Positions 1,636-63,480 are shown, counted from the first letter of the stretch. The stretch is DNA of 64,000 nucleotides from Amoebophrya sp. A120 (GCA_905178155.1 CAJINV010000009.1:3554275-3618274); one strand, 5' to 3'. Numbers and translations: made by a program. Notes: generated by a model not told the origin, from the sequence alone.

Positions 1636-4600
1636 ATGACAACCTCGAGGAACTACAGTGACAAGTACAAGAGCCCCCGAAAAAGGGCCCGCCTACGCAG
1701 ACCTGGCCGCTCTTCAGTGAAAAACAACTTGCTCACAAAGCTGCTTGAAGCCGTGAAAGGACGCATCCAGGACCTACAGAGAAGAGTACTAGATCCCTTT
1801 TTCCAAGAATCACGACGTAATGCTAAAGGTGATAGGGACCGTCAAGAACGCAGCTGGTTTGCTTTTCCAGTTTCGGGAGTAGGACCGGCCACTTCGACGT
1901 CCCCGGGCAGGAAAATGCGAAAAAACATCGATGCATGCAGCTCCTGTAAGGCGAGAGCGAGACGGACCGCCACGCATGGGCATCAGCGAGGACGGCGAGA
2001 AACGTCTGATCACATGAGCGGGAGGACTGTGAGCACAAGAACTAGCGATAACTCATCGTGTATTTCTCCCCGATCATTGCAAAATGCCGTAGGCTACAGC
2101 TGCGGTTGCCGAACAAGGTGGAGAAGGAGAACGGCACAGAGAAACGGAGTTGCAGCTGGTGCTACAAGCGGTGCTGCGACAAGGGCAACGACCGGAATAA
2201 TAAATGGGGCACCTGAAGATGTAGGAGCGCGGCGTAGTTGCAAAACGATCTCTTCGACTAGAGTCAGAGACAAGAACCTACCAAGCCCCAGCACCAGCCT
2301 CCACTGCAAGAACCTGATAAACCCCTTTCACCCGAAAGAGCAGTTCCCAATATTCCTATCCCTGTTCCTCTACCTCCAAACCTTCCTCAACTTTACCTTC
2401 GCCGCCTACTTCCACGTCCCGCCAGTCGACTCCACCTGGGTCCGCCCACTCATCCTGCCCTGGGAGCCGGTACGAGGGACGAAGGACGCGATTCTAGTCA
2501 CTTGGACCACCGGCTGGAACCCCAACGCCGCAGTTCTACGCTCGGTGTTGCAACGACGCTACCCCGTCGCGATCGGGTCCATGAACATCGATCTGCGGAA
2601 CAGGAACCAGGAATCCGCTACTTGGTACAACTCCACCGAACAATTCCCAGGATTTTCGCCCTGGGAAACGGTGTACGAGGGTCCGGGAAAGCAGTTCGAG
2701 AACACAAACCTACTCCCCGGCCATCCCTACGAGTTCCGGGTAAAGACGATCGGGCGGAACATTTTGAAATCAGTCCACCTCGGCGAGAACCCAGACACGG
2801 AGTCCGAGTGGTCGGTCCCGCAGATGGCCCACACGAACTACGACCCGATCCGGGAGCGGTTTCCGATCTTACTCCAGGGGATGTCGGCGCACAACCCGGA
2901 CTACGCCATAATCGAAATCGACCGGATCCAGGTTTACAGAAGAAGGGACGAGAAGGGCTTGGTTTTGGCGGTTTTCAGTAGGTGGAACATGCAGCTGATC
3001 TGGTATAAGAATTTTTTTTTTGCTAATTATCCATTGTACTGCGCGGGTGCATGACAGCTGTTGCCTTGCATCGGCGTTACGCGTGACAAATTATCATATT
3101 TTATCAGGTTGAAAACGTACAACACCTTCAACTATCCGGGGGATTCGAACGCGATGGCAAAGGACATTCGAAGATTATGGATTGCAAATATGTCTGGGTC
3201 TGAAAGATTCTAAACTTGTAATGCTGTCTCTGGATTCTACAAGAATTTGTATTGCATGACCAGCAAGAGGACTCCGGTTTGTGCTACGCGGAGAGGGCAT
3301 TTGTCATCCGGTACAGGCATCACAAAGTCCTCTAAAAATATGTGATGCTTGGGCATGCATCACAAACATCATGGGTCATTCAAAATATTATATGCATGAC
3401 AAACTTGGCAATCTTCCAGACCCAGACACTTTTGCAGTTGATAAAGATTAGATCAGTCCCATTTCATCGCGGTTGTCTCCACCGACGCGTGGGAGTGGAA
3501 CGTGACGCCGAGCCTGATAAAAGCCATGGAATTCTGCGGGGCCTTCCACTTCGCCACCTGGAGCCGGAATTACGGCGGGAGCCACATCAAGATGCCCACG
3601 CAGACAGGGTAGAAGAGGATAGGTTTTTTGATTATCTTCTCGATCTCCGAGAAGACTAACTTAGTCTTCTAACTAAACCTTAGTAAGGTTTCTACGCATC
3701 ACAACTGCTGTGTCTGTAGCAGCATCATGCTGCGTGCCAAACTCGCAGCTGGGAAAATGTTTCTGACTTCTTGTGAAAATCAAATATGTAAATCAGTTTT
3801 GACGTCGACCAAACCTCGAGCCAAAAGGGTTTCGGCAACCCCTACGCCTTCTGGGGCATTCCTGGTTCCGGAACCGGGATGGGGTTCGAATCCGTCGCGT
3901 GGCCAACCTCCGCTTACCTGATGCAGAAGCTGGCGCCAAACGCGATCGTGCGGCTGATTCTGTACATGGACTACGTGGTTCGCCACTACTTTGTTTCCCT
4001 CCCGTCGGTCCAAACGGTGTCTACGTCGTTTCACACGAAGGCTTTACCACCGACTCATGAGTCGTTGCACAACCCCTACACGTATGCACAGCGGCAGCTG
4101 GTGTGCGAAGGGCCGAACTGCAACGAGTACCAAGTCGGGGTAAAATCCTACATCCAGGAAGACGACTTTTACAAGGTCTACAACGGGGAACTCCGGGTCC
4201 ACATGGACAGGTTACTAGAAGCGAACCGCACCGTCGACCCGCATTACTACCACTTTTTCCTTTTCACCAACTCTTCCATCTACAAATTCGACCCCAGACC
4301 CGCGGAAACGAGAGTAACGGAACTAGAGCGGGTGTGGGGCGGGCCGTCGGAACGGTTTCACTTCAACGTGTCGGCGCAGGCGTATCAGCTGTCCGTGTTC
4401 CAAGAAGCCTTGCCGAGCTGGTTTCCGGAGAGAACGGGGATCCCTATGCTGTGCAAAAGTATCGTACTCGTAGCAATTGCGTTGATGCATGACAAATCTC
4501 TTTCTCAAGGTAAATCAGCATTACAAATTCGATTCGATTCGTAATGCTGCGCCAATTTGTAATGCAATTTATACTAGTACGATACTTGGTTTTGCAATGC

Positions 4601-5014
4601 ATAATTCCGTATAGGAAGCGATACTGCCCGGACCTGTTCCGGTCGGATCGGTTTGACATCAACCCGATAACATGCAGAAACACCTCCCGCAGGCCGACGA
4701 ATGAATCGACTCTCTCCCCAGACAACTCCTGTTGCGACTACTTGGACTGGAACGTGGGTGGGGACCCGAGCAGGGATTATTTCCTCGGGTTGAGGTGCGG
4801 GGTCGGGGTGGTACCGACGCTGTGTAACGAAACATTGACGAGTTTCTTACCCTCCATCTCGCACAAACCACCCTTCAACCACACGATGGGGCTGGGAACG
4901 CCATTGCCGCCGGTGTTTTCGAAACTTCCCCCCACGCAGTCGGTGATGGCCGCCATGCTGGGCTTCCAAAACCCGTTTCCGAACGGGCATTTTCACCACT
5001 TGGCAACGGTGTGA
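1636..5014 (+). CDS. Fibronectin type III + ILEI/GG-type-like domain protein (spliced; start uncertain)
   Basis: FN3-like segment WETVYEGPGKQFENTNLLPGHPYEFRVKT..SEWS. Spliced continuation GLVLAVFSRWNMQLIWLKTYNTF..AMAKDIRRLDQSHFIAVVSTDAWE..PYAFWGIPG resembles ILEI. GT-AG introns 3003-3107 and 3609-3796; introners 3176-3443 and 4445-4603. Confidence 0.65.
3176..3443. mobile_element. Introner family A (TIR ~TATCAAATGCAAAAATGTCTGGGTCTGGAAG)
   Basis: TSD AAGAT/AAGAT, TA termini; join RRLDQ. Confidence 0.9.
4445..4603. mobile_element. Introner family B (TIR ~TATnnnTGCAAAAGTATCGTACTCGTA)
   Basis: TSD ATCCC/ATTCC; join TGIPYRK. Confidence 0.85.
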
Positions 5015-5044
5015 TGAGGTGGTGGTGAATCGGGAATAAGCAGC

Positions 5045-7809: not shown

Positions 7810-10800
7810 ATGGGTCAACTTCTCAGTTGTTGCCCGCGCCGTGGCGCGACTGAGGCTTCCGCGAAGGTCACTCCTGCCAAACCCGGAGTTCTAGACCGGT
7901 CTGATGACCTCTCGAATATTGCGGTCGCCGGACCACCCATAACGGCCACGGCGGTTCTCTCCGAGGTCCCCTCCGATGTGGACAAACAGAAGGACTTGGA
8001 GAGAATTCAGCTCACCACCGCGTCTACGACCGTTTCTGATGTAGAGCTGCCGGACGTCCTATCCAGGAAAAAACACCCAGTTCCATCCAATTTGTTATGC
8101 AGAACATGCATAAGCTTAAGCTGCAGTGTTTGTCATGCAAAAAATGGATGGGTATGGGTGTTTTTTCCTGGATACGTCCCTGTCGAGAAGCAATTCATTC
8201 CGCCCCCAGCCACTTTCCTCGACCTCCCGCCGGAACTCCTCATGACGATCTCCGAGTTCATTTCGAAGAACAAACGATCGCTCTGTGTGATTTCAAAGTC
8301 GTTTTTCAAGAACGCGAATTTCACCGCCTTTCCGAGGAACGAACTGATTTTGGAAGCGTGTCGCCGGGGATACGCGGCGTGGCTAAATTTGGTTCTGGTG
8401 GACGAGGAGAATGTTGCAACAATTGTGGATGAAAACGATAAAACGGCTACATTCCTTCCAGTCATCCCTGAACAACTGTTAGAAAAACTTTCCTCCATCT
8501 ACGACCGCTGTAAGATGACGATTTTTCACCACTCCGTTGAGTCCGGAAACGCGGAGACGGTGAAATTCTGGATCGATTTGTTTTCCAAAACAGCGAACCC
8601 AAATCTGGAATTGTTGGAAAAATTGCTAAACTCCCAAGACGTGTGGAAGTGCGTTCCGATGCACCGGTGCCGAACCGCGGAGATCGCGACATTGCTAACC
8701 ACGGTGAAAGCAACAGATCCACAGAACAAAAGCAAGGAAATCAAGATCAAACCCAAGCTGAACCTCGTGACCCGGGCGGATGTGAAGGACACGCTCATTC
8801 AAGCGGGGGATTCCGTGGGTCATGTTGCAGTCCGGTATGATAAACCAGAAATGCTCCAGGCATTAATCGACCAGATGAAGCAGACCGGCTTGGATTTGAA
8901 CATCAGCAATCGAAACGGGGACTCTCCTTTGGACATCGCGGTCGATCTGAAAATGCCGGCTTGTATCCTGTGCAAAAGTATCGTACTCGTATTGCAGTCA
9001 TGCATTTACAAATCTTTTTCTCAGCGTAAATCTGCATTACAAATTTTATTTCGCATGCTGAGGAAATTTGTCATGCATTTATACGAGTGCGATACTTTTG
9101 CAATGCATAGCTTGCGGATCCTTACTAGTGAAAGCAAACGCAAGCCGTGCGCAATGGTCCGCGCGGAAAATGACCTGGTACCAGGTATGGCCTGCTCAAA
9201 CGTTACAATCTCAAACGTTACAATAGAATCTGAGATTTGTCTTGCATGATGGACATGACAGACTCGCAGACCATTCCACTTTCTGCAATACAAATTTCGC
9301 CAGATTGTAGTGCGCATTGGGACTCCAGAACTTGTCATGCGCAATCCTATGAGAGTTGGCTAGATCATGCACTCTTGCATCACAGATTTCAATATTCTAT
9401 TGTAACGCTTGAGATTGTAACACCTGAGCGGGTTATACCAGGCAGTAGAGACGAAAATGGTGTTTGTAGTGGAGTTATCAAACGTAAAAATGTCTGGGTC
9501 TGGAAGAATGGAACTTGTGCTGCTAAATCTGAATAATCCAAAAATCTGTGTTGCGTAAGTGCCAAAAGCTGTCCGCTTTTGACCAAGTTGGGAGGGAGTT
9601 TCTCGTGCAGGAAAGGCATGACAGAAACCTCAAAGAATCTGTCATGCTGGGTCTCGCATTGCAGACCTCATGGGTCATGGAAAACCTGCATCACAAATCT
9701 TGCATTCTTCCAGACCCAGACATTTTTGCATTTGATAGGAGTACATGAAAACGAAGGGTCTAGCAGCTCCCGGCGGGGTGAACTTCCAGCAAAACAACAG
9801 CACGGGGGCTCCTGGGGGGACGGGATTATCAGGACATCAGGGAACAAACAACAGCGAAACGGGGGAAGCGGCGCTGCATTTGGCGTGTAGCTCGTTTTCT
9901 AGTGAAGACGGTAGTCTCGTCGTCCCACTGGTCGCGGGAACTACAGGGGTGCAGCACACAGCTGTGCACCCGATAAAAGCAATAGACACCGGCGTCCTCG
10001 TCCTAGACCCCGAGATCTGCAAAATCCTGTTGGATTCCAAAGCGGACGCAACTTTACGCGATAAGTCCGGGCAAACGGCGCTGCACAAAGCGTGTGTCTC
10101 AATGCGGAACGTGTTGGGCTGCAAGGATGGTATTAAGCACTGCCACAAAGATCATTCGCAAGAGGCTGCAAATAAAATGCGCGACAACGAGAAGAAGGTC
10201 TTACAAACCTGTGATTTTTTGTTGAAAGCGAATCCGCGGACTGTGGCGTACCAGGACAATGAGAAGTGCTCCGCTTTGATGCTAGCAGCAGGCTCTGGCA
10301 GCTTGGAGCTCTTGAAGTTACTGATCAGCTACTGCAGTGCAACCAATCTAGAGAGGGAAAGTAGCGGTGTCGCGGGAGCAGGAGCAACATCAACATCTAC
10401 ATCATCCACTCCAACAGCGCATCAATCCGATTTATCGCCCTCGAAACTACCGCAAAACAGCAGGTCGCAAGACCCGGAGAAGTTGATTCTCGAGTCCCGG
10501 GACGTGCAGAAAAGGAATTTGCTCCACTACGCCTGCACGTTCGACAATGTGGAAGTGGTGAAATTTCTCATGGAAAACTACATTTTGAACGAAACAGAAC
10601 ATCCTCAAAACACGACGCCCACATCAAGTACAAATTCAATCAAAAACCGAAAATTACTGACCACCGCCGTGGACGAACGAGAGCGGATTCCCTTCATGAC
10701 GGCCATCGTCTCCCGGGCGAGAAATGTTTTACAGTATTTCCTCGAATTAGAAAAGCAGAGACCAACCACATCGCTCATCACAAAACAAGTGGATCAGCAG

Positions 10801-11998
10801 CTTCAGACACCACTGATGCTGGCTTGCGGCGACGCGGAATTGGTGGAAATTTTGCTGAAGGACGAAGAAATTATGAACTCCGAGATGATCGAGGAAGTCG
10901 ACTGGGAGGGCAGAAACGCGTGTCATATTTCTTGCCAGTTGGGAGATGTGGAGTCGTTGCGATTGCTGACGGAGGTCATGGATCGGAAGTACAGTGATGA
11001 GAGCGAAAATGTAGCGGGATCCGAGCTTCTACTGAATAACACAATGGACTGGGGCTGGACCTGCTTGATGCTGGCCTGTGACAAAGGCAGCTTGGAGTGC
11101 ATCGAGTTTCTGTTGCAGACAGGGAAAGAAAAAGATGTTGACATGGCAGCACCAGCATCAGAAACTTCTTCTACGTCAAAGATTTTAAACCAACTCAATG
11201 CCCGGCGGTCCGACGGCTGCACGGCGATGTTGGTTCTCGGGAAAACGGATCAGATTTCTATCAAATGCAAAAATGTCTGGGTCTGGAAACTTGTGATGCT
11301 GCATTGCGCATGATTGAAGCGCTTCCAATGGCAGCCAAGCATGACAAGTTTTTGAGAGGCCTTCTGATGCCTAGCAGGTATTACAAATTGCGTTTTTGCA
11401 TGACAAAGAAAGCCTCTCTTTTGCTGCTCATGCAACACAGATTTTCCAGGAATGCATGACACGCATTACAAGCTCACTTTTCCAGACCCAGACATTTTTA
11501 CATTTGATAATTTCCACCGGAGACCAACTTGTCCAGATCTGGGAAAAGATTTTACTACAGGCAGAGGATAAAAACCAGAAACCAGTTTCGGATTTGATTC
11601 TCTTCCAACTCACCCACGATAAAGAATCTTCCTCCTCCCGAACCTTACTCCATTTTGTCGCGCAGAACCCGCATATAGAAGTGAACAGCTGTCATACCGC
11701 GCTGGACTTTTTGCTCGCAAAAGGTGCGGATGTGAACGCAAAAGACTCCGTGAACTGGACGGCTTTGCATTACTGCTGTCAGAAGGGGGATTTGCTGTCT
11801 GTCGAAGTGTTATTCAAATACAACGCGGTCGATTCGGAAGATGACGTCGGGGTGTCCGCCAGGAGTCTGGCGGAAAAATGCGGGCATCACCATTTACTGA
11901 ACGCGTTTCCCGGCAATGTGAACTACACGCTGAATGCCACGGGGGGCAGCTTGGGCGGAAACAGTTTAGGAAGTGGGAGCTCGCCGATGCGGGCGTGA
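7810..11998 (+). CDS. Ankyrin-repeat protein with F-box-like motif and N-terminal MGxxxSCC acylation-like motif
   Basis: Ankyrin motifs GDSPLDIA, GQTALHKAC, RNLLHYAC, WTALHYCC; FLDLPPELLMTISEFI is F-box-like. Removing five introners gives a continuous frame (e.g. MPACGSLLVKANAS, WYQAVETKMVFVVEYMK). Confidence 0.85.
8060..8174. mobile_element. Introner family G (TIR TATCCAGGAAAAAACACCCA)
   Basis: TSD CGTCC; in frame and stop-free. Confidence 0.9.
8964..9109. mobile_element. Introner family B
   Basis: TSD GCTTG; join MPACGS. Confidence 0.9.
9186..9437. mobile_element. Introner family C (TIR with tandem CTCAAACGTTACA)
   Basis: TSD CCAGG, which also yields GT-AG ends. Confidence 0.9.
9476..9737. 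mobile_element. Introner family A
   Basis: TSD GGAGT. Confidence 0.9.
11259..11509. mobile_element. Introner family A
   Basis: TSD ATTTC; join DQISTG. Confidence 0.9.
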
Positions 11999-12624: not shown

Positions 12625-15600
12625 ATGATGGTGCCGTCGCTTCTCTTCGCCAGCTTGGGCGCAGTAGCGCCGTGGTTTTTCTTCTTCACAAATCTCGTGA
12701 TTATCGGAGTAGATGCTGTCACCGTACAACAGCAACGAGCTTCGGTTGCAGCGGGAACAGGTGCGGGCAGAAGTACGTCTGCAGCTCTGTTGGAGAAGCG
12801 CCGTCGTGGAGCTCGTAGGGGAACGAGTCGAACGACGAAGTTCTCTATGCGGGGAAAATACAATCGCAGAAAGACCACTAGAACGAACTTCATTTCCCAG
12901 AAGGAGGCCCTGCTGCAAGTCCCGCACCACCTGCGACAGGAATTTGCTTTACTGCAGGAACAAGACCAGCATAGCCATGCAGGGACCAACATCAAGACCT
13001 CCCACAAGAGTAGAAAAGCAGCCTCTACTTCTTCTGCTGCGACGGCAGAAATAAGAAACGCGAACAAAATTCTCGAACTGAATAAGCTTTACTCCAAGCA
13101 CTTCGCTCAGCTCGACGAAACCATTCTTTCCTGCAACGAGAAAAAGCTCAACCTCCAATCGAAGTTGAAGGAGGAGAGTGAAAAATTGAAACAAAAACAG
13201 CAGCAATCAACCCAGCAATTGAGAAACAAAGACCTCCTCTACAAGACCGTCCAAGAGTTACAAGATAATATGCGGATTTCCGTGAACGAGATCGAGAAGC
13301 AAAAGCAGCTGTGTGAGAAGCAAGCGAGTAGCAGAAATGGAGAAATATTGGCTTTATCCCAGGACGAGCAGTTGGTCGGGAAGTTTCAACCTGACTACAG
13401 TACTTGCGACAAAACAGTCTCTTCACCGCCGAAACTTTTGGAGTGCACGTTACCCGACGGGTCACTGTTCTTCACTTTCGCGAATGGGACGCTGCATAAT
13501 AGCATGCATTGCAAATATGTCTGGGTCTGGAAGGATGTAACTTGTGATGCTGCATTTGCATGCTACAAAAATCTGTGTTGCATGAATAGCAAAAGAGGTC
13601 CAGTTTTTGCCATGGCGAGAGGGCATTTCTCATGCGGTATAGGCATCAGGAAGCCCTCGCAAAACTAGTGATGCTAGGTCATGCATCACAGACGTCAGGA
13701 ATCATGCAAAATGTGCATGACAAACCTTGCAGCCTTCCAGAGTCAGACATTTTTGCATTTGATAAATAATTTTGTCAGGAAATTCGCATCTAAAACCAGC
13801 AAAGAGCTGCTCTCCTTGAACTTGATGCGGATTCTGTACAGCAGCGAGGGGGCGATGCCGGGGGACTCGGCGCTGTTGCAGATTTCAACATCTGGGCAAA
13901 ATGGAAAGAACTTGATGTTCACGACAAGAGGTGGTCACGATCAACAACATTCTAGTAAGAAGATAAAACCGCACTTCCTCCTCCAAAACACGACGAATTA
14001 CAACGTGTCGGAGATTTTAACAGCAGAGGAGATCAACGACGGCGTGAAGTGTGCGAAGCATGCGAAACAGTTGAAAGGTCAAGACTGCGGGTTATACCAG
14101 GATTTGATCGCCACTTTCGAAGATTCCGTCCGCGACAGTAAGATCACTGCGAAGCAAGAATTGGTGAAAGAAACCGAGAAATATCCACGAAAAAACACCC
14201 ATCCCCATCCAATTTGTTATGCAAAACAAGCATAATTATGATTTGCAGTGTTTCTCATGCAAAAAATGGATGGGGATGGGTTCTTTTCCTGGATAAGAAA
14301 TGCGACAAAGCCACCAAGGATTTCGAAGTTTTGTCCTCTGGAAACAAGGCGAAATTACTGCAGCTGCAAGCGGAATTGCAGGAATCCGTACAGTATTTGC
14401 AGCAGTACGTCTTCGAGGCGGGGAAGCAGAAAACCACGTTTGAGGCAGTGTCAAAAGACATTGCGGCGGAGGTTTTGAGCTGCGAAAATTCCATCAACGC
14501 GGAAAAACAGTCGCTGGAGGGGCTGAAGATGTTGTACAAAACAGCTACCAACTCTGCCGGTGGTGCTGGGTCTTCTAGTACGACCTCAACATCAGGGTCA
14601 ACCTCAACAGCAGCCGCAAACAACAGCACTCCTGTGCAGTTCATGGGAAACTGCGAAGTTTCTCCGTTCGTCGCGGACACCCCCTGCGTTTGCACCGTCG
14701 GGAAGGACGGGGTGGTGAAGGGAAAGCAGACGCTTAGTCGCGAAATTGTGAACGTGGATTTTTCTGTGGCGGGTAACAAGAATTTCAACAAGGCCAGTTC
14801 CTGTCCGCCGCTGAAGTTAGTCGACCGGAGTTGCGATTGCAGCAGCGGGAGTTCAAGTTCTTCAGCAGGACAAGCACCGTCCTCCTCATCTTCCTGCCGC
14901 CCCTCCAAGTGGTCGGAATGGTCAGAGTGCACGCAGCAGTGCGGCACAGGCTTGCAATCGCGAACCCGGACGTTGCCGACAGGTTCGTCCTGTACTAGCG
15001 GTGGATCCGCTTTCCTACAGGACCTGAACACGGTGGAGGAGCAGGAGTGCAACACCCATCCGTGCGACTTGAACTGCGAATTGAGCGAGTGGACCGCCTG
15101 GTCCGGATGCACCAAGCAGTGTCGCACCGGGCACCAAGTGCGCAGACGGGAACACGTTTTGCAGCAGGCCCTCGGTGACAACGGGAAGTGCTGGAAGAAA
15201 AACTCGAAACAACGGCTGGAACTGCAGGTCTGCAACACCAACGCAGATTGCGTTGGCGCTTCTGGGGTGAAGCAGGCCGTGCCGAGTTGTAGTGAAAACA
15301 AACTTTCTGCGTCGAATTTGCTGTTTTTGGTCGACGGATCCGGGTCAATGCAAGTGCAGCAGAAGTCCACTGGTGGTGGATCAGCAGGAGCTACAACATC
15401 CCAAACGACCATCCTTCAAGACGTGCAAACGTTTCTTCTCTCCTTCGCGAAACGCATGAACTTTTTTCCGACCAGTGGTGTCACGAAGAACAAAATCGGG
15501 CTGATCACCTTCGCGGACAGAGCAGAGAAGATCAGCTTGGCGCAGGTAAATGAGCAGCAGGTAGTGCAGGAAGCGGATTTGAAGAGCGCAATCGTGGAGA

Positions 15601-24554: not shown

Positions 24555-24772
24555 AAAGAAAAACGGGGAGGATTAGGATACTAGGAAGGTGGGCGCGGAG
24601 GTCGCACTTGGTCCTCGGCGTAGAGGGTGGAACATTTGGTGTCATGTTCAACCAATTATACTTTTTTTCAACACGTTCACGTTTACAAATACAAACACAA
24701 AGCTTAGGCTTGCAATGCAGGCTGACGCAGCCGAACGAGCGGACGCTCCCCGGCAACCTGCTGGCTACAGCT

Positions 24773-35500: not shown

Positions 35501-35731
35501 GTGCCAAGAGGCAAAGGGTGGATTGGGTATTTTGTATGGCAAACGAGGGGGAGGGGGAGTTGTGCACTGTCATAGCCTCTCTGGCTGATGCAGAAATTTG
35601 AGAAGCAGCAGAACATCTTCAAGATTCTCTTCAACAATAGCAAGTACGCGGAAGGGTGGGGCAGCGCGATCGGCGGGACACACAACGTGTTCGGTGGCGC
35701 AACGTCGAGCAAGGAGCTGAGGAAACTGTAG
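32540..35731 (+). CDS. Divergent S1/P1 nuclease-like protein with C-terminal membrane anchor (start uncertain)
   Basis: WMVNLVVDLHYPFNLGF, KLWTSM, spliced WASETTKIACDIY, KRMEEAAKHVVIFL; hydrophobic tail LCVAAVLIPAFLWLM. Confidence 0.6.
34532..34755. mobile_element. Introner family J (TATCCAAGAAAAAAA..GTGTAA)
   Basis: TSD GATCG; join TKIACD. Confidence 0.88.
34836..34990. mobile_element. Introner family B
   Basis: TSD AGTTT; right terminus CA. Confidence 0.85.
35356..35574. mobile_element. Introner family H (TIR TATGAGAGTGCACAACTCCCC)
   Basis: Clear TIR; flanks ATTTC/GCCTC diverged. Confidence 0.85.
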
Positions 35732-53312: not shown

Positions 53313-56300
53313 ATGTTGGCAGCGCAGGTGGCAGCGGCCGGTGGGGTCGCAGCCCAGCAGCGCATGAGCGGCTCGATGGGGGCACCCCCGCAGATGCCCC
53401 AGCAAGCCCACCCGGGTAGCAAGATGATGCACGACCAAGCGAGCTACGGGTATCCTAAGCAAAAACGTCCCCACGACCCCATAGTCAAGCTGGTAAATCT
53501 GCAAGACAATTCTCCACGCTTTGGGAGGTGTGCATGACAAGTTCCCATCTGCAGTGTAGTGCTGGTCAGCAAGGGCAGACGCATGAGAAAGCCAGTTTAT
53601 CATCGTGTTTACAGCATTCTTGCAAATTCCTAAACACAATTGGAAATGCCTCTCATCATTATGGAGATGCGCATTACAAATGTTCCTGTCATTGCGCAGT
53701 TGCATGACAGCTATGGAGTAGGGACGTTTTTACATAGGATAACAGGGCACCCACCTCCCTCATTCCGCAGACACGGTTCCGGGGCAGGAGGGGCGCTACG
53801 TTCTACGAGTTATCAAATGCAAATATGTCATCTGGGTCTGGAAGATTGCGAGATTTGTCATGCTAGTCTGGCATGACTCTGCACTGCACTCTGTATTGTG
53901 TGCTGGCCACCAAGAGGCTCTCTTGCCTGTCATGCAAAAGCGCACTTTCTCGTGCGAAATACGCATCACACAAGCACGAAAAAACTTGTCATGCTTGGCG
54001 GCGCATGATTACAGAGCACTTATTGGTCACGGACTTGCATCACAAGTTTCCAGACCCAGATGACATTTTTGCATTTGATACGAGTTGAGAAAAGACAACT
54101 GCTTCACGGACATCGCCATGGCGTCCTGGTTATGCATTGCAAAAGTATCGTACTCGTAGTAATCCCATTCATGCATTACAAATTTCTTTCTCAAGTTAAA
54201 TCCGCATTACAAATTTGATTTCTCATGCTGAGGAAATTTGTATTCGCAATTCATACTAGTACGGTACTTTTGCAGTGCATACTGGTTCGAGAATTTCGCG
54301 CTCCTCGTTATCGTCCTGAACGCACTGTGGATCGGGGTGGAGGTTGACATAAACGACGGCACCAAAGACGCACCGCCAGAGGAGCTTTTTGTCGTGGTGG
54401 AAAACGTGTTTTGCGTTCTGTTCACGGCCGAAATCTTCGTCCGCCTCATGAGTTACAAGAAGGCGCTTTTCTTCTGCACCGACAAGGAGCTGCGATTTTG
54501 GAACATCTTCGACTTGCTTTTGGTACCACGCTAGTACAACGTAGTTTGGAGGTTGTCACGCAAATTTCCTGTATGTAGAAATTGTGAAGTTCTTGTAATA
54601 ATCCACCTCATGATCCTGGTGCTCTATCGCGCACAGTATAATAATTGCTATTCAAAGGGACTACTTCTACTACACACCGCGTTGAATTGATTCTTGTAGC
54701 TCGAAGTGCTGTTGAAGACACCCATCATGAAAAACCTACCTCAGGTGCTGTTGATGGTAATAGAAAACTGGATTCTCTCCTGGGCAATGGGCGACTATGG
54801 ATTGCAAAAATGTCTGGGTCTGGAAGATTGCCGTGTTTGTCATGCATATTTGGTATGGCCAAGGATGTCTGTAATGCATGACCTAGCATCACAGATTTTT
54901 ACAAGGCTTCCTGATGCCTATTCCGCATGACAAATTCCGTCCCCGCGTAGCACAAACTGGACTCCTCTTGCTGGTCATGCAATACAAATTTTTTTCGACT
55001 CCCAAGCTAGCATCACAAGTCCCAACTTTCCAGACCCAGACATATTTGCAATGCATAGCGACGAGGAAGGTGCCATGAGCTCGCTGTCCGCGTTGCGTCT
55101 GCTCTATGAATCTGTCAGGATTGAAATCGTCAAAGTTGAAATGGTTTGTCATGCATAAAATGCAAGGCATGAAGTGCCTGTCTTGCCGGGGTGGCAAGTG
55201 AGGCAGATTGTGGGCCTATTTAGGGTTTGGGATAGAACTGCTAAAGGAGCATGACAAAAGCACTGCTCTGTGCCCAAACAGCATGACAAATTGGATTTCG
55301 GTGCTCCGGAAATTTGTCATGCGCCGCTTGAAAATTGGTCTCCCAAGTGGTATCCATTCATGACACATTATTTCAACTTTGTCGATTTCAAACCTGACGC
55401 GTCCATATGCTCAGGTTGCTGCGTATCTCCCGAATCTTTCGAATGGTCCCCGAGCTCGGAATGATGGTCAAATCGATGGCGGCGGCTGCAAGGTACATCG
55501 GCTCATTGTTGAATCAGCTCCTCACATACTTTGGACAAAAACAATGTCAAGAACCAGTGGATGAACTCGAATTTGTTGTGCTGAAGATGCAGAATGTTGT
55601 GACGTGAAGATGTGATAACCCACCTTTGTCATATACGATGTCATCTTCATTCATTTTTGTAAATTTAGCATGACAATAAAAAGAAAAACTACCACCTCTC
55701 CTAGGTCCGTGTCTTCAACGATGGTGCTGGCAGTCGGGCTCATGTACGTCTTCGCCGTTTTATTCACGCAGTGGGGCTATGCATCGCAAATATGTTCTTC
55801 GGGTTTGGAAGATTTGTCATGCGAAACGACTTCGTATTTGAATTTCTTCTACTTTCACGAAAAGAAGTCACATGATCTGGGCTTCTATGTTTGTGATGCG
55901 TCGAGAGTGCGGTTTCTCCCCAGCTTTTTTTGTTTTTTGAAGTGCTGAATGAATAATCTTCATCCTCACAATGCAGCTTGTAAAAATCTAGAGCAGCCCG
56001 AGGACAACATGTTTGCAATGAATATCGGCAAAGAAAAGGAAGACTTCAATGGAAAATGCCGAGACTTGCCAACGCCGTGCGAAGACGATACAAACTACTT
56101 TGGCTCCCTCGGCTGGAGCTTTATGAGCTTGATGCAGATATTGGTACCATCTTGATTTTTTACGATCTCTTGATGCTTCATCGTTTTGGGCAGATGAAGT
56201 AGCGTAGAAATAACTGGAGCTCTGTCATGTGAAAGGAAATTCGTGCCTTTTATTCTTCCCAAGAAATCCGTCCCTGCTTCTTGACACGCGACGAGTATGT

Positions 56301-59300
56301 TTACGTATACATGAAAAAAGTAAAAGTACAGATTATACACGGAACGAAAGCGATGATGAAGCCATCCAAAATAAAGTTGCAACTGATCTTTTCCCCCAAA
56401 TAAGGTATACGACGACACTTTCGCGCTTATCCGCAAGACTTTCCTGGCCAACGCACTCATGGGTCTGCTGCTGATCATCTTCATCCTCGTTGGTGCCTTC
56501 ACGGTGCTCAACATGCTAATTGGTGTCTATGGCGTTCTCGAACGTTACATTCTGAGCTGTTACATGAATTTGTGATGCAAGAACCGCAACAGTGAACGGG
56601 GCAAGCTTGCAGCTTTCGCATCACAAATCCGGCACAGATTTAGGCGCTGTTTAGCCCTTCGGGGATTTGTCATGCGAAGTGGCTTGATTGTCTGGTGGTT
56701 CATGATGTTTTTCGCGGTTCTGACCCTAGATCTCCTGCGTCCGAAGCTGCTTGCGGCGACGGTGCAAAGGTTTTTGAAGTGGCGCAGTCGGGTATGCATG
56801 ACAAATCATGTGACATCAGTTGAGAATGTAACGTTTGAGAATCCCATAGTGTCATCTGCGAGATTGTGTCGACCACAAAAAAGGAAGATATGAACACGAA
56901 GCTTTTCACCTCCGCACAACAAGAATCGGAACTACTACACGTGCCAATCTTGCATGAGAAGTACAACTAGCAGCCTGTCAAGTGTTGTAAGTACCTTTTG
57001 CTTTTTCAGCAACAGAAATAACCTTCGTCTCGGTTTTAGCAAGAACTTGCTGTTTTTTATCCAGGTCCACCTCCACCCGAAATTTGTGATGCGCGATGTG
57101 CTTTGGTGAAACAGGTTTGTGTTGCATAGGAGAGGAAGAGAAGCTACTCATGAACAAGGTCGAGGATCTTTTCGCGCAAATGGACGCCGACGAATCTGGC
57201 ACCATCTCCCGGGAAGAATTCGAAGCCAAGACCGCACTCCTAGAGAAGCTGGGCCTGGACCAGTCCACAATAAGACTAGCCTTCGAACTCATTGATGACG
57301 ACCGCAGTGGAAGCTTGGAAATGCAGGAATTCATACACATGGTATGAAATTTCATGCGATTGTTGTAGTTGTTGCAATACAAATATTAATTAGCATCTTC
57401 CACCGGCGCAGGCATGATGTTATTTTTGATTGTAGCGTTGTTGTGAGATCACTGTACGAACAAATATGACACGTGAGCATGATCACAACCACAAGAAGCC
57501 TCAGAAGCCTCGTTCGCTTGATGTTGATGAAGTGCGGGTAAATAAAAATATGGTTTTGCGGATCATCATGATAGAACCCGAACAGCAAAAGCGGAGCAAC
57601 ACGAAAATCTACACGTGAACTTCTAGCAATATGAAAACGAAAACGCATTCACAAAAACTACACTTAGGTTTTCCGGCTGTTGCACCCCCCGACGTCACAG
57701 GACCTTTTGGTGATAAAACGAAATTTAGCGAAGCTGTGCGACTCCCTCGGTTGCGACGTGTTCGATGCGCCCCCACCCATGAAGGCCAGCAAGAAGAGCG
57801 GACGCGCGACCTCGGGCGGCGGAGGCAATGGCCCCTCGGACGGGGGCTCCGGAAAGGGGGAGGGGGAGAAGGAAGAGAAGGTGGCGAGCGGGTTTGTCAA
57901 GAAGTCAAAGACTATGGCGTTCTCAACTGTTACATCTTCAACTGTTACATGGATTTGTGATGCAAGAATGAAAAAAGAGCAAGGAGGAAGATTGCGCCTT
58001 TTGCATTACAAGTTTGGTGCAGATTATAATGCTATCTAGTGCGTCAAGAACTTGTCATGCGAAGCAGCTTGATCCTGTAGATGTGTATTGTAGTTTTGCA
58101 TTACAAATCCATGTAACAGTTGAGAATGTAACATTTGAGAACGCCATAAAGACCTTCTCGGGGATGGAAACCAGTGTGGCGCAATACAGCATCGATATGC
58201 ATTGCAAAAGTATCGTACTCGTACTAATTGCAACTTCTACGCATGACAAATCTCGTCCTTAAGGTAAAACAGCATGACAAAAAAATCCAGTTCTCATGCT
58301 GGGAAAATTTGTAATGCATTTTTTATACGAGTGCGATACTGTTGCTGTGCATAATCGAGCATGTGGAGCAACAAATCAAAAACGCAGTGGCCCTGGCGGT
58401 CAAGCAGGAGGTGGTGTTATGGAACAAAAGCCTCCAAAGTGTGTCACTGTCGTGTCTGAAAAAATTATTCTTTTTCTTTCTCAGTGTCACCCCGGACGAC
58501 TACACCGGATGTTGACACTACGACAACCTCTACTGCTAGTAGCCGCGCAACAGAAACATAGAAAGTGGTCGAATTATATTCAATGTTTCAGATTGCTACA
58601 CAAGCACACTTTTTTTTGTTCTTGCATAAGCGCCGAGACTAGGGGCAGGAGGAGGAGCGGGCGGCTACGGTGGCTACGATGCCGGCGCGGTATTTTTTTA
58701 CTATGTGGACATGGGATCTACATCTCGATCTAGGTGTGCATGACAGAATTTTTTACAAACGAAAATCGCCTCCGTGTCCGTGTGACTTGTCAACGTGTGT
58801 GAATTGACGAGATAAGTAAACAAAAGTGATTTGCCATGCACAAATGTGAAACAAACACAGATGTCAAACTACGGTGGTGGGGCTTCGAACGAAAATTTGG
58901 AGAGCATCAAGCGCGAAGTCCGGGGCTTGCAGGATTCCGTCCAGCGGGTGGATATGAATTGCAAGAGCATCGTGCTAGTAGTACTTAATCGCATTACAAA
59001 CTTGCTCAGCATGACAAATGGAATTTGTGATGCTGTTTTACCTTAGTAAGGAGACGAGACTCGAATAGCTTCGCCCGCTCGGTGTGACATCGCAAACTTG
59101 CGCTAGAAGGAGCATTTTTCACAAAGTTCACCTCCCGCCGCGGGACGCGCACGCTTTGCGTATCACCTGGGAACAACGTTGCTGCGTCTCGCGCTGCATC
59201 CCCCCGCGGCCTAGTGGATGCGTTTTCAAAGCATGTCGAGCCGGAAACGCGGCTAGAGACGCCTTCGCAGTGCGTTTCTGGTTGGAAATCTAGCAAGCGA

Positions 59301-61837
59301 CGCCGTCGCAGTGCATTTCTAGCTGGAAACCCACCTAGCGACGCCGTCTCAGGGCGTTTCTAGCTAGAAAGCCAGCTAGCGACGCCGCCCCGGTGTGTGT
59401 CCAGCAGGGAATCCAGCTAGCAATGCCGTCCCAGCGCCTTTCTAGCTGAAAGGAAATACGGCCGGAAAGGCAGCGGCAGCGTGTTTCCGGCTAGAGATCC
59501 AGGCGGAAAGGCATCGCCAGCGCGTTCCCAGAACGAAATCCAGCGGGAGAGGCATCGCCAAAGCGCCCCCGGCTGGAAGAAATTCAGCCGGCCGCGTCTT
59601 TGCAGAGTATTGCTAGCGTGAAATGGAGCCGGGGGCGCCTTTTCTTTCAGAGCATTCCTAGCGGGAAACCCAGACGGAGGCGCGTTTTTTTCTAGCCGGG
59701 AGGAAATCCAGCAGGGAGGCAGTGCATTACTTAAAGAGGCATCCGCAAGCAACGCGCCTCCAGCTGGAAATCCATCGAGGGCGCCTCTTCGATGAGTATC
59801 CAGCTGGAGACGCCGTGGCAATGGAAATCCAGCTTGCTGGAAACGCCTTTTCGAGGGAAATCCAGATGGAAACGCATCGAGAAGGCTTTTCCAGCGCTTT
59901 CCCGCCCGACCTTTTCAAAGTGTTGGAAGCTGGATTTCTAGTAGAAGACGGCTTTCGATTTCTAGCTTGGAATCCAGGCGCGGGGAACAGTTTGAAAAGG
60001 CATCCGCGGCGCATTGTTAGCTGGGATTCCAGGTCAAGGCGCCTCAAGGTGTTGCCAGGTGGATAGATTTGCGGGCGGAGATGCCTCGGGGCATTTCCAG
60101 CTGTCAAGAATCGCAAGGCAGCTGATTTCTCTTCGGTTTCCCGGGGTTTCTTCCCGCGTTAGCAAAACTCTTCTGGCTACCCGGGGAAAGGCTTGCCTAG
60201 AAGGATATTGGGTAGGTAATGGGAAGCTATCGGGAAGGGGTGGCAGAGCTGGAGCTCTTCTCGGGTTGTTGTGCTTAGCGCGGCTCTTCAGGCTACCCGG
60301 GGCAAGGATCTTCTAGTAGGGTAGCGGGAGGGTGTTCATTGGGATAGTGGAAATGTGTTGGGAATTTGTTTTTTTTTTCCCGAGTTGCTGCGTTTAGCAC
60401 AGTTATTCTGGCTACCCGGGGCATGGGTTTTCTAGTAGAATGCCTGGAAGGTATTGATGGAGGCATCCATCTGCGCCATCGTTGCACGCCTTCCAGGTGC
60501 AGCGTCCGTGGCTGCGGTTGCCGCCTTCCGTCTCCGTCGGCTGCTCGCGATGTCTCCGTGCCCGCGATCAGCTGAAGCTTTTTTTCCTTAGGGATTTCAT
60601 TAAGAAAGTGACACGCGAGCGCGCGGATCCGATTGACCCCCTACGTCACTCCCCCCCGCCCCTTCGAGATGATGACACTGGGCCCCAATCTGTATGAGTA
60701 GTTTTTATTTTTGGGATGAAGACTTACATGCGGGGGGCCCTCGCCCCCCCCCGCGCCCCCCCCCGCCCTTTCGATATGATGACACTGCGCCCCAATCCGT
60801 ATGAATAGTTTTTATTTTTGGGATGAAGACTTACATGCGGGGGGCCCCCGCCCCCCCCCGCGCCCCCCCCGCCCTTTCGATATGATGATATTGCGCCCCA
60901 ATCTGTATGAAAAGTTTTAGATCTAAGATTATAGCTTTAAGATCTAAGATCATGACTTTTGACATTGCGCCCCGATCTGTAGGGATGCTTTTAAGATCTA
61001 AGACGATAAGAGCCAAGATTATGGCTTTTGAGATGAAGACTCACATGCGGGGGGCCCTCGCCCCCCCCCGCGCCCCCCCCCGCCCCTTCGACGTGATGTT
61101 ATTGGGCCCCAATCTGTATGAGTAGTTTTTATTTTTGAGATGAAGAACTACATGCGGGGGGCCCTCGCCCCCCCCCGCGCCCCCCCCGCCCTTTCGAGAT
61201 GATGACACTGCGCCCCAATCTGTATGAAAAGTCTTTAGTTCTAAGATTATAACTTTAAGATCTAAGATCATGACTTTTGAGACGCTTGGTCATAGCTTTA
61301 AGATCTAAGATTCATTATGAGATGCTTTAAGATTCAGATTAGATGACTTTGAGACGCTTTTTAGAATCTAAGATGATGACTTTTGAAATGAAGACTCCAG
61401 AATTCTGCGATAGGTTTAAGATTTCGTAAGATTTGAGATTGAGATAAGATTTGATAATAAGATTGGCGATTCGAATAAGATTTGAGACTGAGCTAAGATT
61501 TAAGATTCAGATTGAGACTGAGACTTGAGATTGAGACTTGGTGTGAAATTGAATTACTCAATTTGAATTATTCATGAAGTTGAATTATTCAATTTGAATT
61601 ATTCACGAAATTGAATTATTCAATTTGAATTATTCAGAAAATTGAATTATTCGTGAGTCTTGCGATGAAATTGTAGATATGACTATCAATTTGTCATGAT
61701 GCATAACAGCAATTGGTACGAGTGCGATACTCTTGCACTGCATAGTGGAAGTGGTGCTGCAAAATCTACGGGACAAACTGCAGGTTAAGCGACGGTCAAG
61801 CTCGCAGCAACAACAGGGAAACAACTCGTCACAGTAG
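53313..61837 (+). CDS. Second single-domain 6TM voltage-gated cation channel with two EF-hands; last exon lies beyond a 2.8-kb intron
   Basis: WFENFALLVIVLNALWIG; spliced S4 LSALRLLRLLRISRIFR; S6 TVLNMLIGVICEIV; EF-hands DADESGTISREEF and DDDRSGSLEMQEF; terminal join VQRV|EVVLQNLRDKL..stop at 61835-61837. Confidence 0.85.
53451..53741. mobile_element. Introner family K (TATCCT..G.AAAAACGTCCC)
   Basis: TSD ACGGG/ACAGG, which yields GT-AG ends. Confidence 0.87.
53811..54080. mobile_element. Introner family A
   Basis: TSD CGAGT; 3-nt insertion present in both TIR arms. Confidence 0.9.
54131..54281. mobile_element. Introner family B
   Basis: TSD CTGGT; join ASWFEN. Confidence 0.9.
54796..55057. 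mobile_element. Introner family A
   Basis: TSD GCGAC. Confidence 0.9.
55105..55407. mobile_element. Introner family F inside S4
   Basis: TSD TGCTC; join LRLLRLLR. Confidence 0.9.
55778..56024. mobile_element. Diverged A-like introner
   Basis: Flanks GGGGC/TCGGC; join TQWGKEK. Confidence 0.75.
56528..56848. mobile_element. Introner family C
   Basis: TSD GTGTC; join LIGVICE. Confidence 0.9.
56889..57128. mobile_element. Diverged introner (singleton)
   Basis: TSD GAAGA/GGAGA; imperfect TIR TATG(C)AACAC..TTTCACC. Confidence 0.75.
57913..58148. mobile_element. Introner family C
   Basis: TSD AAGAC. Confidence 0.9.
58196..58353. mobile_element. Introner family B
   Basis: TSD ATCGA. Confidence 0.9.
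58418..58628. mobile_element. Strongly decayed introner
   Basis: TATG..GAACAAAA termini; flanks diverged; removing element plus 5 nt restores frame. Confidence 0.55.
60645..61270. repeat. ~107-bp GC-run minisatellite with an AT-rich variant unit
   Basis: CATGCGGGGGGCCC..CCCCCCCGCGCCCCCCCC recurs at 60727, 60834, 61043, 61151. Confidence 0.9.
61545..61652. repeat. 31-bp tandem repeat built from the palindrome TTGAATTATTCAA
   Basis: About 3.5 units of GAAATTGAATTATTCAATTTGAATTATTCAC. Confidence 0.9.
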
Positions 61838-63321
61838 GGGGACGACGCGCGGATGATGTTCTTGGTGTCGTGATTTCGTCAAGTTTATTTCTCAGATGTT
61901 ACATACTCCTTGACAAGAACTACTCCCGGTGCTGTGAAAAAGTAAAAGACACGACATCGACAGTGATATATGGAAAAGCGAAAGAACTCGAAAATGCTAT
62001 GTACAAATGTCTATACCTACGATAGATTTGTTGTCCCTACAACTAAGGAGGTGGAGCGAGAAGATAGTTTTACCTCTGTGCATCAAGAAAGCAATACACT
62101 TCTGGGCTTCATCTTGAGGAGATCATTTTTTTACCCGACGAGGACAACTCCACCTAGTAGAAGATCAGCTTTTCTCCTTTTTCAGGCACAGCAGCATGAA
62201 AAGTGCTAGACCCCCAGCGAGATAGTGGTGTCCTAGTCTTCAAGGAGAACCAAAAATAGTAGTGCCGCAGTGGCTGTGGTGCTGCTTCTGCACAAAATGT
62301 TGACTCGGATAGCATCTATTTCGTCGGAGGTAGTTGTACCGTAGTACTACTAAGGTGTTATTGGTCATTTGATTTTCCACAACGAACAGAGCCGTATGAT
62401 CTAGACCCTGCTGTTGATTGGGTAGTTGCTTGTCGTCGTTCCACCCCCGGCGTCCCCGGCCACAAAAAAACACAGTACAGAGTTGTCGCAGTCATGCTTT
62501 TACTTCATTTCTACCTCCTTGCAGTACTATCCTAATATCTCCTCCTTAAATATAGTCTGTCAATGAAATATTGTGTTTAATTTATCATGAAAGTACGAAA
62601 ATGTATTGCAGCGAGCACGCGGCCGTCGCGTGCTTTGTTTATTATGTTTCCGAAATGAAATCACAATCACAAGCAGAAAGCACGAGCAGAACCTAACCTT
62701 TCGTAGGAGGGATTATATTCACGTAATAAAAAAAAATGCTCGCACAAAAAAATCATCCACTGTATAATTCTGTTGTGAATCTAGACCGCAGCCTGTAGTT
62801 GAAGCTTGTACATAAATTCGACTGAAGAGAACAACTTCTATAAGCGTGAGTATCAACTTGTTATGGTGCTGTACAGAGAAATAGAAGAAAAGCTTAAGCT
62901 AGTGCTTGACGAAGACGACGGAGCCGCCCAGGCGTCGTATCGGCTTGTAAGCACGCCGACGCCACGACGAAGCAGTGCTGGCTTTGTTGCGTTGGCCGTG
63001 TTCTGGAGGAGCAACCAGATGGAAAATCGTTGCAAGACCTACTTTCGGTTGCAGTGCCGCATCGGCATCCTCTCTGCGATGTCCTTGCAGAAGAAGTTAC
63101 TGCTTCATAAAAGGCGTATAATTTTTCATCGGTTTCGTCCTCACACCTTGGCTCCTCGTCCTCCTGCTGCTGTCATCAGGCGACAGGCGATTTTTACTCG
63201 TACACACAGCAGAGGTTCAGAAACTACTGCTAGTACCTCAATACCTCGGTTTTCGTCCTACTTCCCGTGCCCCAGAACAAAGACTCGTCGTACTCCCCTC
63301 GTCTCTGTGAACTTGTCGTTT

Positions 63322-63480
63322 TATGAGGCTCATGCTGTTTGTAATGACGGCTCATGGACAGAGTTTTCTCTGTCGTCGTCATGGACCCCAAAGCCTCTGT
63401 ATGAGGCTCATGCTGTTTATGCAAGACAAATTTCAGATTCTATTGTAACGTTTGGGATTGCAACATCTGAGCAAGCCATA
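63322..63480. mobile_element. Broken family-C introner (one TIR only) at the Top2 truncation
   Basis: 63420-63480 matches the reverse complement of the 9186 left end; internal duplication TATGAGGCTCATGCTGTTT at 63322 and 63400. Confidence 0.7.

What the first reader, a model, noticed from the sequence alone, without database searches (positions are those of the whole stretch)
3176..63480. About 60 MITE-like introns from 10+ families share one grammar: 5-bp TSD + TA...TA + TIR, mostly without GT-AG
Seen: most gene interruptions read NNNNN-TA[TIR]...[TIR]TA-NNNNN and are 109-330 nt long. Deleting the element plus one 5-mer rebuilds conserved motifs exactly (WWAVVTMTTVGYGD, LRLLRLLR, STCYMLTWD, NSMYVFGG), so they must be removed precisely if the genes are live. 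TSD sequences are arbitrary, so most ends are non-canonical in any register. Established: Amoebophrya genomes are reported to have abundant non-canonical introns, including introner elements with inverted and direct repeats, so the class itself is not new. Inference: the fixed 5-bp + TA signature across dissimilar families points to one mobilising enzyme and one removal machinery. It differs from Tc1/mariner (TA is itself the TSD) and Transib (5-bp TSD but CAC termini).
Basis: partly seen in the sequence, partly recalled or inferred. Interest (0 to 1): 0.9.

Follow-up and report, generated by a model that had tools for sequence, protein, structure and literature searches.

The report
Jumping introns cut at fixed offset
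These are the already published transposon-like introns of the parasitic alga Amoebophrya; the new point is that they appear to be cut at one fixed offset without the usual GT-AG signals, likely by a relaxed spliceosome, which makes their unexplained removal testable.

Summary
Confirmed. The window is Amoebophrya A120. It holds 60 elements of 109-330 nt (45 perfect 5-bp TSDs, 55 TAT...ATA ends, 20 clusters), one 2.8-kb element and one half element. An RNA-like contig lacks element plus one TSD at two sites; a DNA-like run keeps them. The class, the TAT-N7-AAA ends and 5-bp repeats are published (Farhat 2021), and '5-bp TSD, TA/TA' is noted for one family (Gozashti 2025).

Not found in my searches: (1) seven elements with mismatched TSDs (six read from database gene models) allow only one cut position: four TSD letters stay upstream, so the intron reads N-TAT...ATA-NNNN. 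The cut follows transcription, not element orientation. (2) The U at intron +2 is conserved only on the donor side (1 vs 11 changes in 304 related elements), and canonical donors here are mostly GTAY. (3) All 60 carry an 11-bp internal motif, spaced 31-32 bp in 15 of 17 families.

Best reading: a spliceosome reading UAU and measuring the 3' site from the hairpin; mobilised by an integrase-type transposase, which I did not find.

The parts
3176..3443 (+). element, family 1, perfect TSD
4445..4603 (+). element, family 2, TSD mismatch at letter 3
8060..8174 (+). element, family 11, ankyrin-like gene
8964..9109 (+). element, family 2
9186..9437 (+). element, family 13; GT-AG at register 4
9476..9737 (+). 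element, family 1
11259..11509 (+). element, family 1
13503..13764 (+). element, family 1, TSD mismatch at letter 5; model keeps right letter (register <=4); donor reads GC
14182..14295 (+). element, family 11, TSP1/vWA gene
19811..20077 (+). element, family 1, kelch-RING gene
20364..20527 (+). element, family 2, mismatch at letter 5; model and an orthologue keep right letter (register <=4)
20574..20835 (+). element, family 1
21118..21303 (+). element, singleton, mismatches at letters 1-3; model keeps left letters (register >=3)
21372..21682 (+). element, family 10
21733..21883 (+). element, family 16
22710..22961 (+). element, family 1; RNA contig length fits removal of element + 5 nt, not the available GT-AG cut that would add a codon
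24773..24974 (+). element, family 12, in the 3' UTR; RNA contig joins 24767 to 24975; no GT-AG in any register
26638..26947 (+). element, family 14, silent mismatch at letter 5, SPX-EXS gene
27024..27172 (+). element, family 2
28790..28940 (+). element, family 16, silent mismatch at letter 2
30331..30582 (+). element, family 1
30643..30801 (+). element, family 2, mismatch at letter 4; model keeps left letter, orthologues agree (register >=4)
31047..31197 (+). element, family 2
34532..34755 (+). element, family 3; spanned whole by a DNA-like contig
34836..34990 (+). element, family 2, right end ACA
35356..35574 (+). element, family 8, mismatches at letters 1-3; RNA contig resumes at 35578 (register >=3)
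36967..37075 (+). element, family 11, K+ channel gene
38079..38340 (+). element, family 1, in the pore-helix region
38430..38590 (+). element, family 2, left end TAC
39152..39368 (+). element, family 8, mismatches at letters 3-4; model keeps left letters (register >=4)
39448..39685 (+). element, family 7, mismatch at letter 3; model keeps left letter (register >=3)
39964..40200 (+). element, family 7
40245..40455 (+). element, family 9
41385..41694 (+). element, family 6
42492..42650 (+). element, family 2
42723..42890 (+). element, family 15; GT-AG at register 4
42947..43208 (+). element, family 1
44178..44507 (+). element, family 5
44688..44893 (+). element, family 12
45068..45330 (+). element, family 1, right end GTA
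45376..45680 (+). element, family 6
48329..48499 (+). element, family 2, silent mismatch at letter 4 (untested)
48994..49138 (+). element, family 2
49242..49396 (+). element, family 2
49446..49676 (+). element, family 8
49719..49870 (+). element, family 2, silent mismatch at letter 5 (untested)
50116..50342 (+). element, family 8
50658..50926 (+). element, family 1
51282..51485 (+). element, family 3
51539..51694 (+). element, family 2
53451..53741 (+). element, family 4, mismatch at letter 3 giving GT-AG at register 4 (untested)
53811..54080 (+). element, family 1
54131..54281 (+). element, family 2
54796..55057 (+). element, family 1
55105..55407 (+). element, family 6
55778..56024 (+). element, singleton, mismatches at letters 1-2 (untested)
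56528..56848 (+). element, singleton
56889..57128 (+). element, singleton, mismatch at letter 2 (untested)
57913..58148 (+). element, family 7
58196..58353 (+). element, family 2
58953..61744 (+). 2.8-kb element: family-2-like halves, perfect TSD, 2.6-kb repeat-rich insert; removal continues the ORF; not checked on RNA
63419..63480 (-). half element (family 13 arm) where a topoisomerase-II-like fragment breaks off; no partner end in the window

Best explanation
These are transposon-derived introns of Amoebophrya A120 that are missing from an RNA-like contig together with one copy of their 5-bp target duplication, are likely all cut at one fixed offset, and are likely removed by the parasite's own spliceosome. 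Steps: (1) Shown: each element has TAT-N7-AAA inverted ends, a 5-bp TSD, inserts in either orientation, and carries an 11-bp motif (consensus TTTGTVATGC) near both ends. (2) Shown at two sites on RNA and at 26 in gene models: element + 5 nt is removed. (3) Strongly inferred: the cut leaves four TSD letters on the upstream exon and one on the downstream exon, so the intron is N-TAT...ATA-NNNN. (4) Inferred: the spliceosome reads U+2, A+3, U+4 as it reads the GTAY of canonical donors, ignores +1 and the AG, and places the 3' cut four letters past the hairpin formed by the inverted ends. Because the ends are symmetric this works in either orientation and at any target, so insertions are silent. 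(5) Inferred: one integrase-type DDE transposase (IS3EU/GingerRoot/IS481EU-like), encoded elsewhere or lost, moved all families by binding the shared motif.
For: Removal: X5 record 9 joins 24767 to 24975, and its 211-nt gap equals two canonical introns plus element 22710 + 5 nt. X1 contigs keep element ends and span 34532-34755 whole. Only 2 of 60 elements could be read through in frame. Register: <=4 at 20364 and 13503; >=4 at 30643 and 39152; >=3 at 21118, 39448 and 35356. 20364 and 30643 share family and orientation; 35356 and 39152 share a family in opposite orientations. Related proteins agree at 20364 (T in P0002) and 30643 (I, V). Selection follows transcription: terminal T changed in 1 of 304 on the donor side, its mirror A in 11 of 304 (Fisher p=0.006), in both orientations. 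AG is enriched at TSD letters 3-4 (33 of 279, p=0.002); G at letter 5 is not (89 of 279). Canonical donors: GTAY in 15 of 17. All 9 commonest A120 non-canonical motifs in Farhat Table S4 have T at +2. Farhat found most spliceosome proteins but not U1 snRNA or snRNP27; SNRNP27K loss goes with +4U in yeasts. Predicted end pairing: positions 9-14 in 58 of 60, positions 1-3 in 47 of 60. Mobiliser: TA..TA ends mark IS3EU/GingerRoot; A120 family 38 has 5-bp TSD, TA/TA ends and integrase-like homology; 31-32 bp motif spacing in 15 of 17 multi-member clusters.
Against: Direct RNA evidence is thin: one contig set whose RNA status is the tool's guess, two removals and one register limit; no junction table was obtained. 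Six of seven register limits rest on database gene models, and the upper limit on two sites. Table S4 and the models may share an aligner's convention. The AT/GC direction of 88 TSD mismatches gave no signal for any register. Positions +3 and +4 show no donor/acceptor asymmetry (4 vs 4, 8 vs 4 of 364). No branch point was identified. Pairing U+2 to U+4 in the hairpin would have to be undone for a spliceosome to read them. No lariat data. No transposase in 64 kb + 502 kb; Farhat report none in A120. IS3EU TSDs are usually 6 bp. Families may share the spacing by descent. Eight TSD-mismatched elements gave no limit (silent change, or no gene model fetched).
Confidence: 0.6

Rival explanations
1. 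Same elements and register, but removal is by a non-spliceosomal hairpin endonuclease and ligase, as suspected for euglenid nonconventional introns.
For: No G+1 or AG needed (register-4 starts GT 115, AT 99, CT 77, TT 71 of 364). Strong predicted hairpins (median z -6.5). U1 not detected. Euglenid introns pair near their ends and leave as circles.
Against: The donor matches the canonical GTAY from +2 on. U+2 is conserved while its pairing partner is not, as expected for a spliceosomal donor (recalled knowledge). AG is enriched at the acceptor position. Tunicates splice such introns with the spliceosome.
Confidence: 0.22
2. The cut position is not fixed or not real: any point in the TSD is used, or reverse transcriptase jumps between the direct repeats across the hairpin.
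For: Direct repeats around a hairpin are the classic setting for template switching (recalled). All RNA data here are cDNA-derived. Most register limits come from gene models.
Against: 58 of 60 elements would break their gene if kept. Seven limits meet at one value, at sites with up to three TSD mismatches. Selection on U+2 follows transcription.
Confidence: 0.08
3. Elements are excised from DNA in some life stage, like ciliate IESs, and the RNA copies the excised DNA.
For: TA-bounded, transposon-like. Only one DNA-like run was laid, and 763 joints were not shown.
Against: DNA-like contigs keep the elements at flat depth near 30. Register and U+2 conservation follow transcription rather than element orientation.
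Confidence: 0.04
4. For mobilisation only: the mover is a hAT5-type transposase or several enzymes, and the internal motif is a host splicing or chromatin signal rather than a transposase site.
For: hAT5 makes 5-bp TSDs. The motif is enriched in canonical introns: 14 of 18 in the window (20 hits, 4 expected) and 15 of 78 predicted ones in related loci (3.9 expected). Its core G changes less (1.3%) than the donor-mirror A (3.3%).
Against: Most predicted canonical introns in related loci lack it (63 of 78). It works in both orientations with a three-turn spacing, which suits DNA binding. Its mean core change rate (3.4%) equals the post-insertion estimate. Hits in canonical introns may be relics of old elements.
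Confidence: 0.3

Closest known systems
Amoebophrya A120/A25 introner elements (Farhat 2021, PMC7789003)
   Same: Same organism. Inverted ends TAT-N7-AAA, direct repeats of 3-5 nt with a 5-bp example, non-canonical ends, RNA-seq support.
   Different: In the text I saw, the border is called unknown or variable, repeats are called variable, transposase mobilisation is ruled out, and no internal motif is mentioned. Here: uniform 5 bp, fixed register 4, shared motif. Figures were not visible to me.
A120 introner family 38 (Gozashti 2025, PMC12130899)
   Same: Noted as '5-bp TSD, TA/TA Termini', TIR DNA, with integrase-like homology.
   Different: One family of 5 copies of about 810 bp. In the 42 of 58 A120 rows I saw, automated TSD lengths are 2-6 or missing and splice mechanisms differ by family. 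The main text says it lacks Ginger termini and TSDs.
IS3EU/GingerRoot and IS481EU transposons (PMC10045372, PMC12730594)
   Same: TA..TA or TNT..AYA ends, terminal inverted repeats, integrase-type DDE enzyme.
   Different: TSD usually 6 bp (IS3EU) or about 4/15/25 bp (IS481EU); no enzyme found here.
hAT5
   Same: 5-bp TSD; TA/TA ends occur in a hAT introner.
   Different: No hAT transposase seen; hAT5 termini not checked.
Euglenid nonconventional introns
   Same: End-pairing hairpin, TSD-like repeats, no GT-AG.
   Different: There +4..+6 pair with -8..-6 and junctions are pyrimidine|purine; here +2..+4 face -5..-7 and junction letters are free.
Fritillaria borealis MITE-derived introns
   Same: TIR + TSD, non-canonical ends, spliceosomal removal proposed.
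   Different: Those keep fixed AG-A(N) ends; here only +2 to +4 are fixed.

Membership tests
Amoebophrya introner elements | Inverted repeat at both ends, A120 motif TAT-N7-AAA | tested here: met
   55 of 60 TAT..ATA; AAA at 11-13
Amoebophrya introner elements | 3-5 nt direct repeat over the exon/intron border | tested here: met
   5 nt; 45 of 60 perfect; 313 of 403 in related loci found without using the TSD
Amoebophrya introner elements | Repeated copies in families | tested here: met
   28 clusters among 364 elements
Amoebophrya introner elements | Absent from transcripts | tested here: met
   2 sites by RNA-like contig, 26 of 26 in gene models
U2-type spliceosomal intron | GT/GC donor and AG acceptor | tested here: not met
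   GT-AG in 3 of 60 and 15 of 364
U2-type spliceosomal intron | Donor consensus from +2 like the host's canonical introns | tested here: met
   N-TAT against GTAY 15 of 17; U+2 asymmetry
U2-type spliceosomal intron | Branch point and lariat; dependence on U2/U5/U6 | not testable with these tools
   needs lariat sequencing or knock-down
IS3EU/GingerRoot | TA..TA termini | tested here: met
   383 of 403; definition
IS3EU/GingerRoot | 6-bp TSD | tested here: not met
   flank identity 0.93 at 5, 0.26 at 6
IS3EU/GingerRoot | Integrase-type DDE transposase in an autonomous copy | tested here: inconclusive
   none in the window or 502 kb of loci; whole genome not held
hAT5 | 5-bp TSD | tested here: met
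hAT5 | hAT transposase and hAT terminal motif | not tested
   no candidate protein; termini not compared
Tc1/mariner | TA is itself the TSD | tested here: not met
   a 5-mer outside TA is duplicated
Ciliate-type IES | Excised from DNA | tested here: not met
   one DNA-like run keeps them; other life stages not examined
Euglenid nonconventional intron | End-pairing RNA hairpin | tested here: met
   predicted only
Euglenid nonconventional intron | Released as full-length circles | not testable with these tools
   needs RNA ends

The most novel reading that the evidence does not exclude
Amoebophrya A120 has a spliceosome that has dropped both G+1 and the AG acceptor. It reads UAU at +2 to +4 and uses the transposon's own hairpin as a ruler to cut four letters downstream. 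One undescribed integrase-type transposase with 5-bp TSDs, recognising an 11-bp motif spaced three helical turns apart, can therefore insert anywhere in a gene in either direction at no cost. The same motif may have been taken over as a general intron mark.
Probability: 0.4. Interest if true: 0.85.

Novelty: already known. Interest (0 to 1): 0.58.

Why it matters
Over 60% of introns in this parasite lack GT-AG. The paper that described them left the splice position unknown and the mechanism open. A fixed register turns 'no splice signal' into a rule (N-UAU donor, 3' site four letters past a hairpin) that existing RNA-seq can test at the roughly one in five elements with mismatched TSDs. If it holds, a spliceosome can work without its two most conserved intron signals, and scarless insertion would explain how tens of thousands of introns spread. 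The shared motif gives a handle for finding the missing transposase.

Tried and rejected
No genome was held, so no genome-wide transposase search was possible. No listed holder is on record as RNA. Raw RNA runs X9 and X10 did not cover the genes (87 reads on element ends, and 0) and test nothing. In one search the DNA-like run filled the joint table, so only contig pieces were usable. The second read lay gave no data, so the silent mismatches at 48329 and 49719 and the site at 53451 stay untested. No spliced transcript contigs could be fetched. A length check of X5 record 12 could not be closed because canonical intron ends there are uncertain; it is not used beyond its start point. The mutation-direction test on TSD mismatches was uninformative. 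Private-change rates cannot separate selection for transposition from selection for splicing, because nearest copies are 11-22% apart. My gene finder was exact for 9 of 17 window introns among 31 predicted; of 195 predicted in the loci I kept 78 (no introner homology, GTA donor, <=300 nt). Rejected: the motif as branch point (both orientations, no fixed distance to the acceptor). Rejected: a GT...TAG cut adding one codon (possible at 5 of 60; absent from the models at the 3 sites covered and from the RNA length at 22710). Rejected: my first reading of 58953 as a half element ending at AG. Seven perfect-TSD pairs over 400 bp turned up in the loci; the six examined are ordinary elements with foreign inserts, their ORFs judged by eye only. 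Twelve window ORFs gave no transposase family. Earlier scan notes: nothing.


Full report
Source. An exon of the kelch-RING gene is 100% identical to a protein that the sources name Amoebophrya sp. A120; three more window genes have identical database proteins.

Observation. A scan for 5-mer-TA...TA-5-mer gave 139 pairs, 43 of them with inverted ends outside the repeat-rich tail. TSD-free scans added 17. The 60 elements are 109-330 nt; 45 have perfect TSDs and 55 end TAT...ATA. Shuffles gave 0-1 against 40, and the duplication is exactly 5 nt. All lie on + strand genes, one in a 3' UTR. GT-AG is possible in 3 of 60. A long-range scan found a 61st, 58953-61744, with a 2.6-kb insert.

Related DNA. 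One pattern scan of metagenome contigs returned 161 loci, 502 kb after merging, with the same families (70-96% best identity) and no exons orthologous to the window. Homology search, blind to the TSD, found 403 full-length elements: 313 perfect TSDs, 61 with one mismatch, 18 with two, 11 with more. A coding model oriented 304 of the 403; on the window it was right in 34 of 34 calls at that margin, with 10 below the margin.

Removal. In one search, run X5 (RNA by the tool's guess; it lacks canonical introns and its depth varies by gene) joins 24767 to 24975, i.e. element + one TSD. A 211-nt gap in the same contig equals two canonical introns plus element 22710 + 5 nt. Run X1 has flat depth near 30, keeps element ends and spans 34532-34755. 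Four database models match element + 5 removal at 26 of 26 sites. Only 2 of 60 elements could be read through.

Register. Where the two TSD copies differ, the mRNA shows which was kept. Fifteen window elements differ; seven give a limit. Right letter 5 is kept at 20364 and 13503; left letter 4 at 30643 and 39152; left letters to 3 at 21118, 39448 and, on RNA, 35356. Only register 4 fits all. 20364 and 30643 are one family in one orientation; 35356 and 39152 are one family in opposite orientations, so the register follows transcription. Related proteins carry T at the first site (P0002) and I or V at 30643. Caveat: six limits come from gene models. Independent of the models, the terminal T (intron +2) changed in 1 of 304 elements and its mirror at the 3' end in 11 of 304 (p=0.006; 2 vs 12 of 364, p=0.012), and AG is enriched at letters 3-4 while G at +1 is not. 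Canonical donors in the window are GTAT 10, GTAC 5, other 2 (4 of these 17 introns from models, 13 inferred by me). Against: no asymmetry at +3 or +4, and no signal from mutation direction.

Internal motif. A matrix trained on elements only (consensus TTTGTVATGC) hits 319 times in 13,021 nt of elements (39 expected), 20 in 3,302 nt of canonical introns (4 expected; 14 of 18 introns, 12 at the strict cut), 21 in 28,864 nt of exons (26 expected) and 16 in 18,489 nt between genes (14 expected). All 60 elements have at least two. Hits cluster 35-49 and 71-85 nt from the ends, in both orientations; same-direction pairs 31-32 nt apart occur in 15 of 17 multi-member clusters and 20 of 28 in all. In related loci only 15 of 78 predicted canonical introns have a strict hit (3.9 in shuffles), so it is not required for splicing in general. 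I read it as a likely transposase site; a host role is open.

Mechanism. See Best explanation. Shown: anatomy, precise removal. Strongly inferred: register 4. Inferred: spliceosomal removal with a hairpin ruler; integrase-type mobiliser. My odds: introner 0.97, RNA-level removal 0.92, register 0.85, spliceosome 0.65, integrase-type enzyme 0.5.

Literature seen. PMC7789003: abstract, sections 10, 11, 12 and 16 whole, passages, supplement passages and Table S4 rows. Its figures (3, 4, S17, S19-S25) were not visible and may show the register or logos. It gives TAT-N7-AAA, a 5-bp repeat example, an unknown border, missing U1 and snRNP27, and no transposase in A120. PMC12130899: passages and 42 of 58 A120 rows of one dataset; two supplement files not searched. 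PMC11282704: passages and section 6. PMC10045372, PMC12730594, PMC11453091, PMC13326754, PMC10581693: passages only. The Roy et al. preprint 10.1101/2020.10.14.339549: search listing only. I found no statement of the fixed register or the internal motif in searches or in the word search of Farhat; the library lacks most subscription journals. Recalled, not from a call: the role of U+2 in the spliceosome core, template-switch artefacts, 10.5 bp per helical turn, and the topoisomerase II and ankyrin labels.

Verdict. Real, and a published class in a published genome. The fixed register, donor-side selection and shared motif are additions that make the open mechanism testable. Interest 0.58.

Noticed in passing
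window 58953-61744: Element with a perfect TSD split by a 2.6-kb repeat-rich insert; removal continues the reading frame, so it may be a 2.8-kb non-canonical intron. Part of the insert resembles L028 (67%).
   Followed up: partly
window 63419-63990 (minus strand): N-terminal part of a topoisomerase-II-like gene (label recalled) that breaks off at a half element; no continuation seen downstream in the window.
   Followed up: partly
window 33618-33630, 3003-3107, 34260-34361: Some canonical introns look like old elements: one donor reads G plus an element-like end, and two carry motif pairs 32-33 nt apart at about 46 and 78 nt from the donor.
   Followed up: partly
all elements, end positions 4-7: The two arms pair poorly at positions 4-7 (40-68%) but well at 1-3 and 11-13 (94-98%); the end itself resembles the internal motif.
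   Followed up: partly
L022:505-1608, L033 (merged contig 632-1465), L066:3862-4492, L065:571-1051, L035 (6314-6770), L018 (1455-1886): Elements of 432-1104 bp that keep both ends and the TSD around foreign inserts; two inserts end in a short ATC/ATG triplet repeat.
   Followed up: partly
L014, L023 (predicted introns): Element-like introns with GT at register 4 and AG one letter past the right end; possible conversion of old elements to GT-AG. Prediction only.
   Followed up: no
window 720-1100: Several copies of a 25-30 nt motif in direct and inverted orientation, between genes.
   Followed up: no
window 5039-5085, 5782-5828, 7131-7163: Three near-identical 33-47 nt repeats around a 2-kb region without Pfam hits.
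   Followed up: partly
window 1-58500: All genes in this stretch lie on the + strand, as in the published unidirectional clusters.
   Followed up: no
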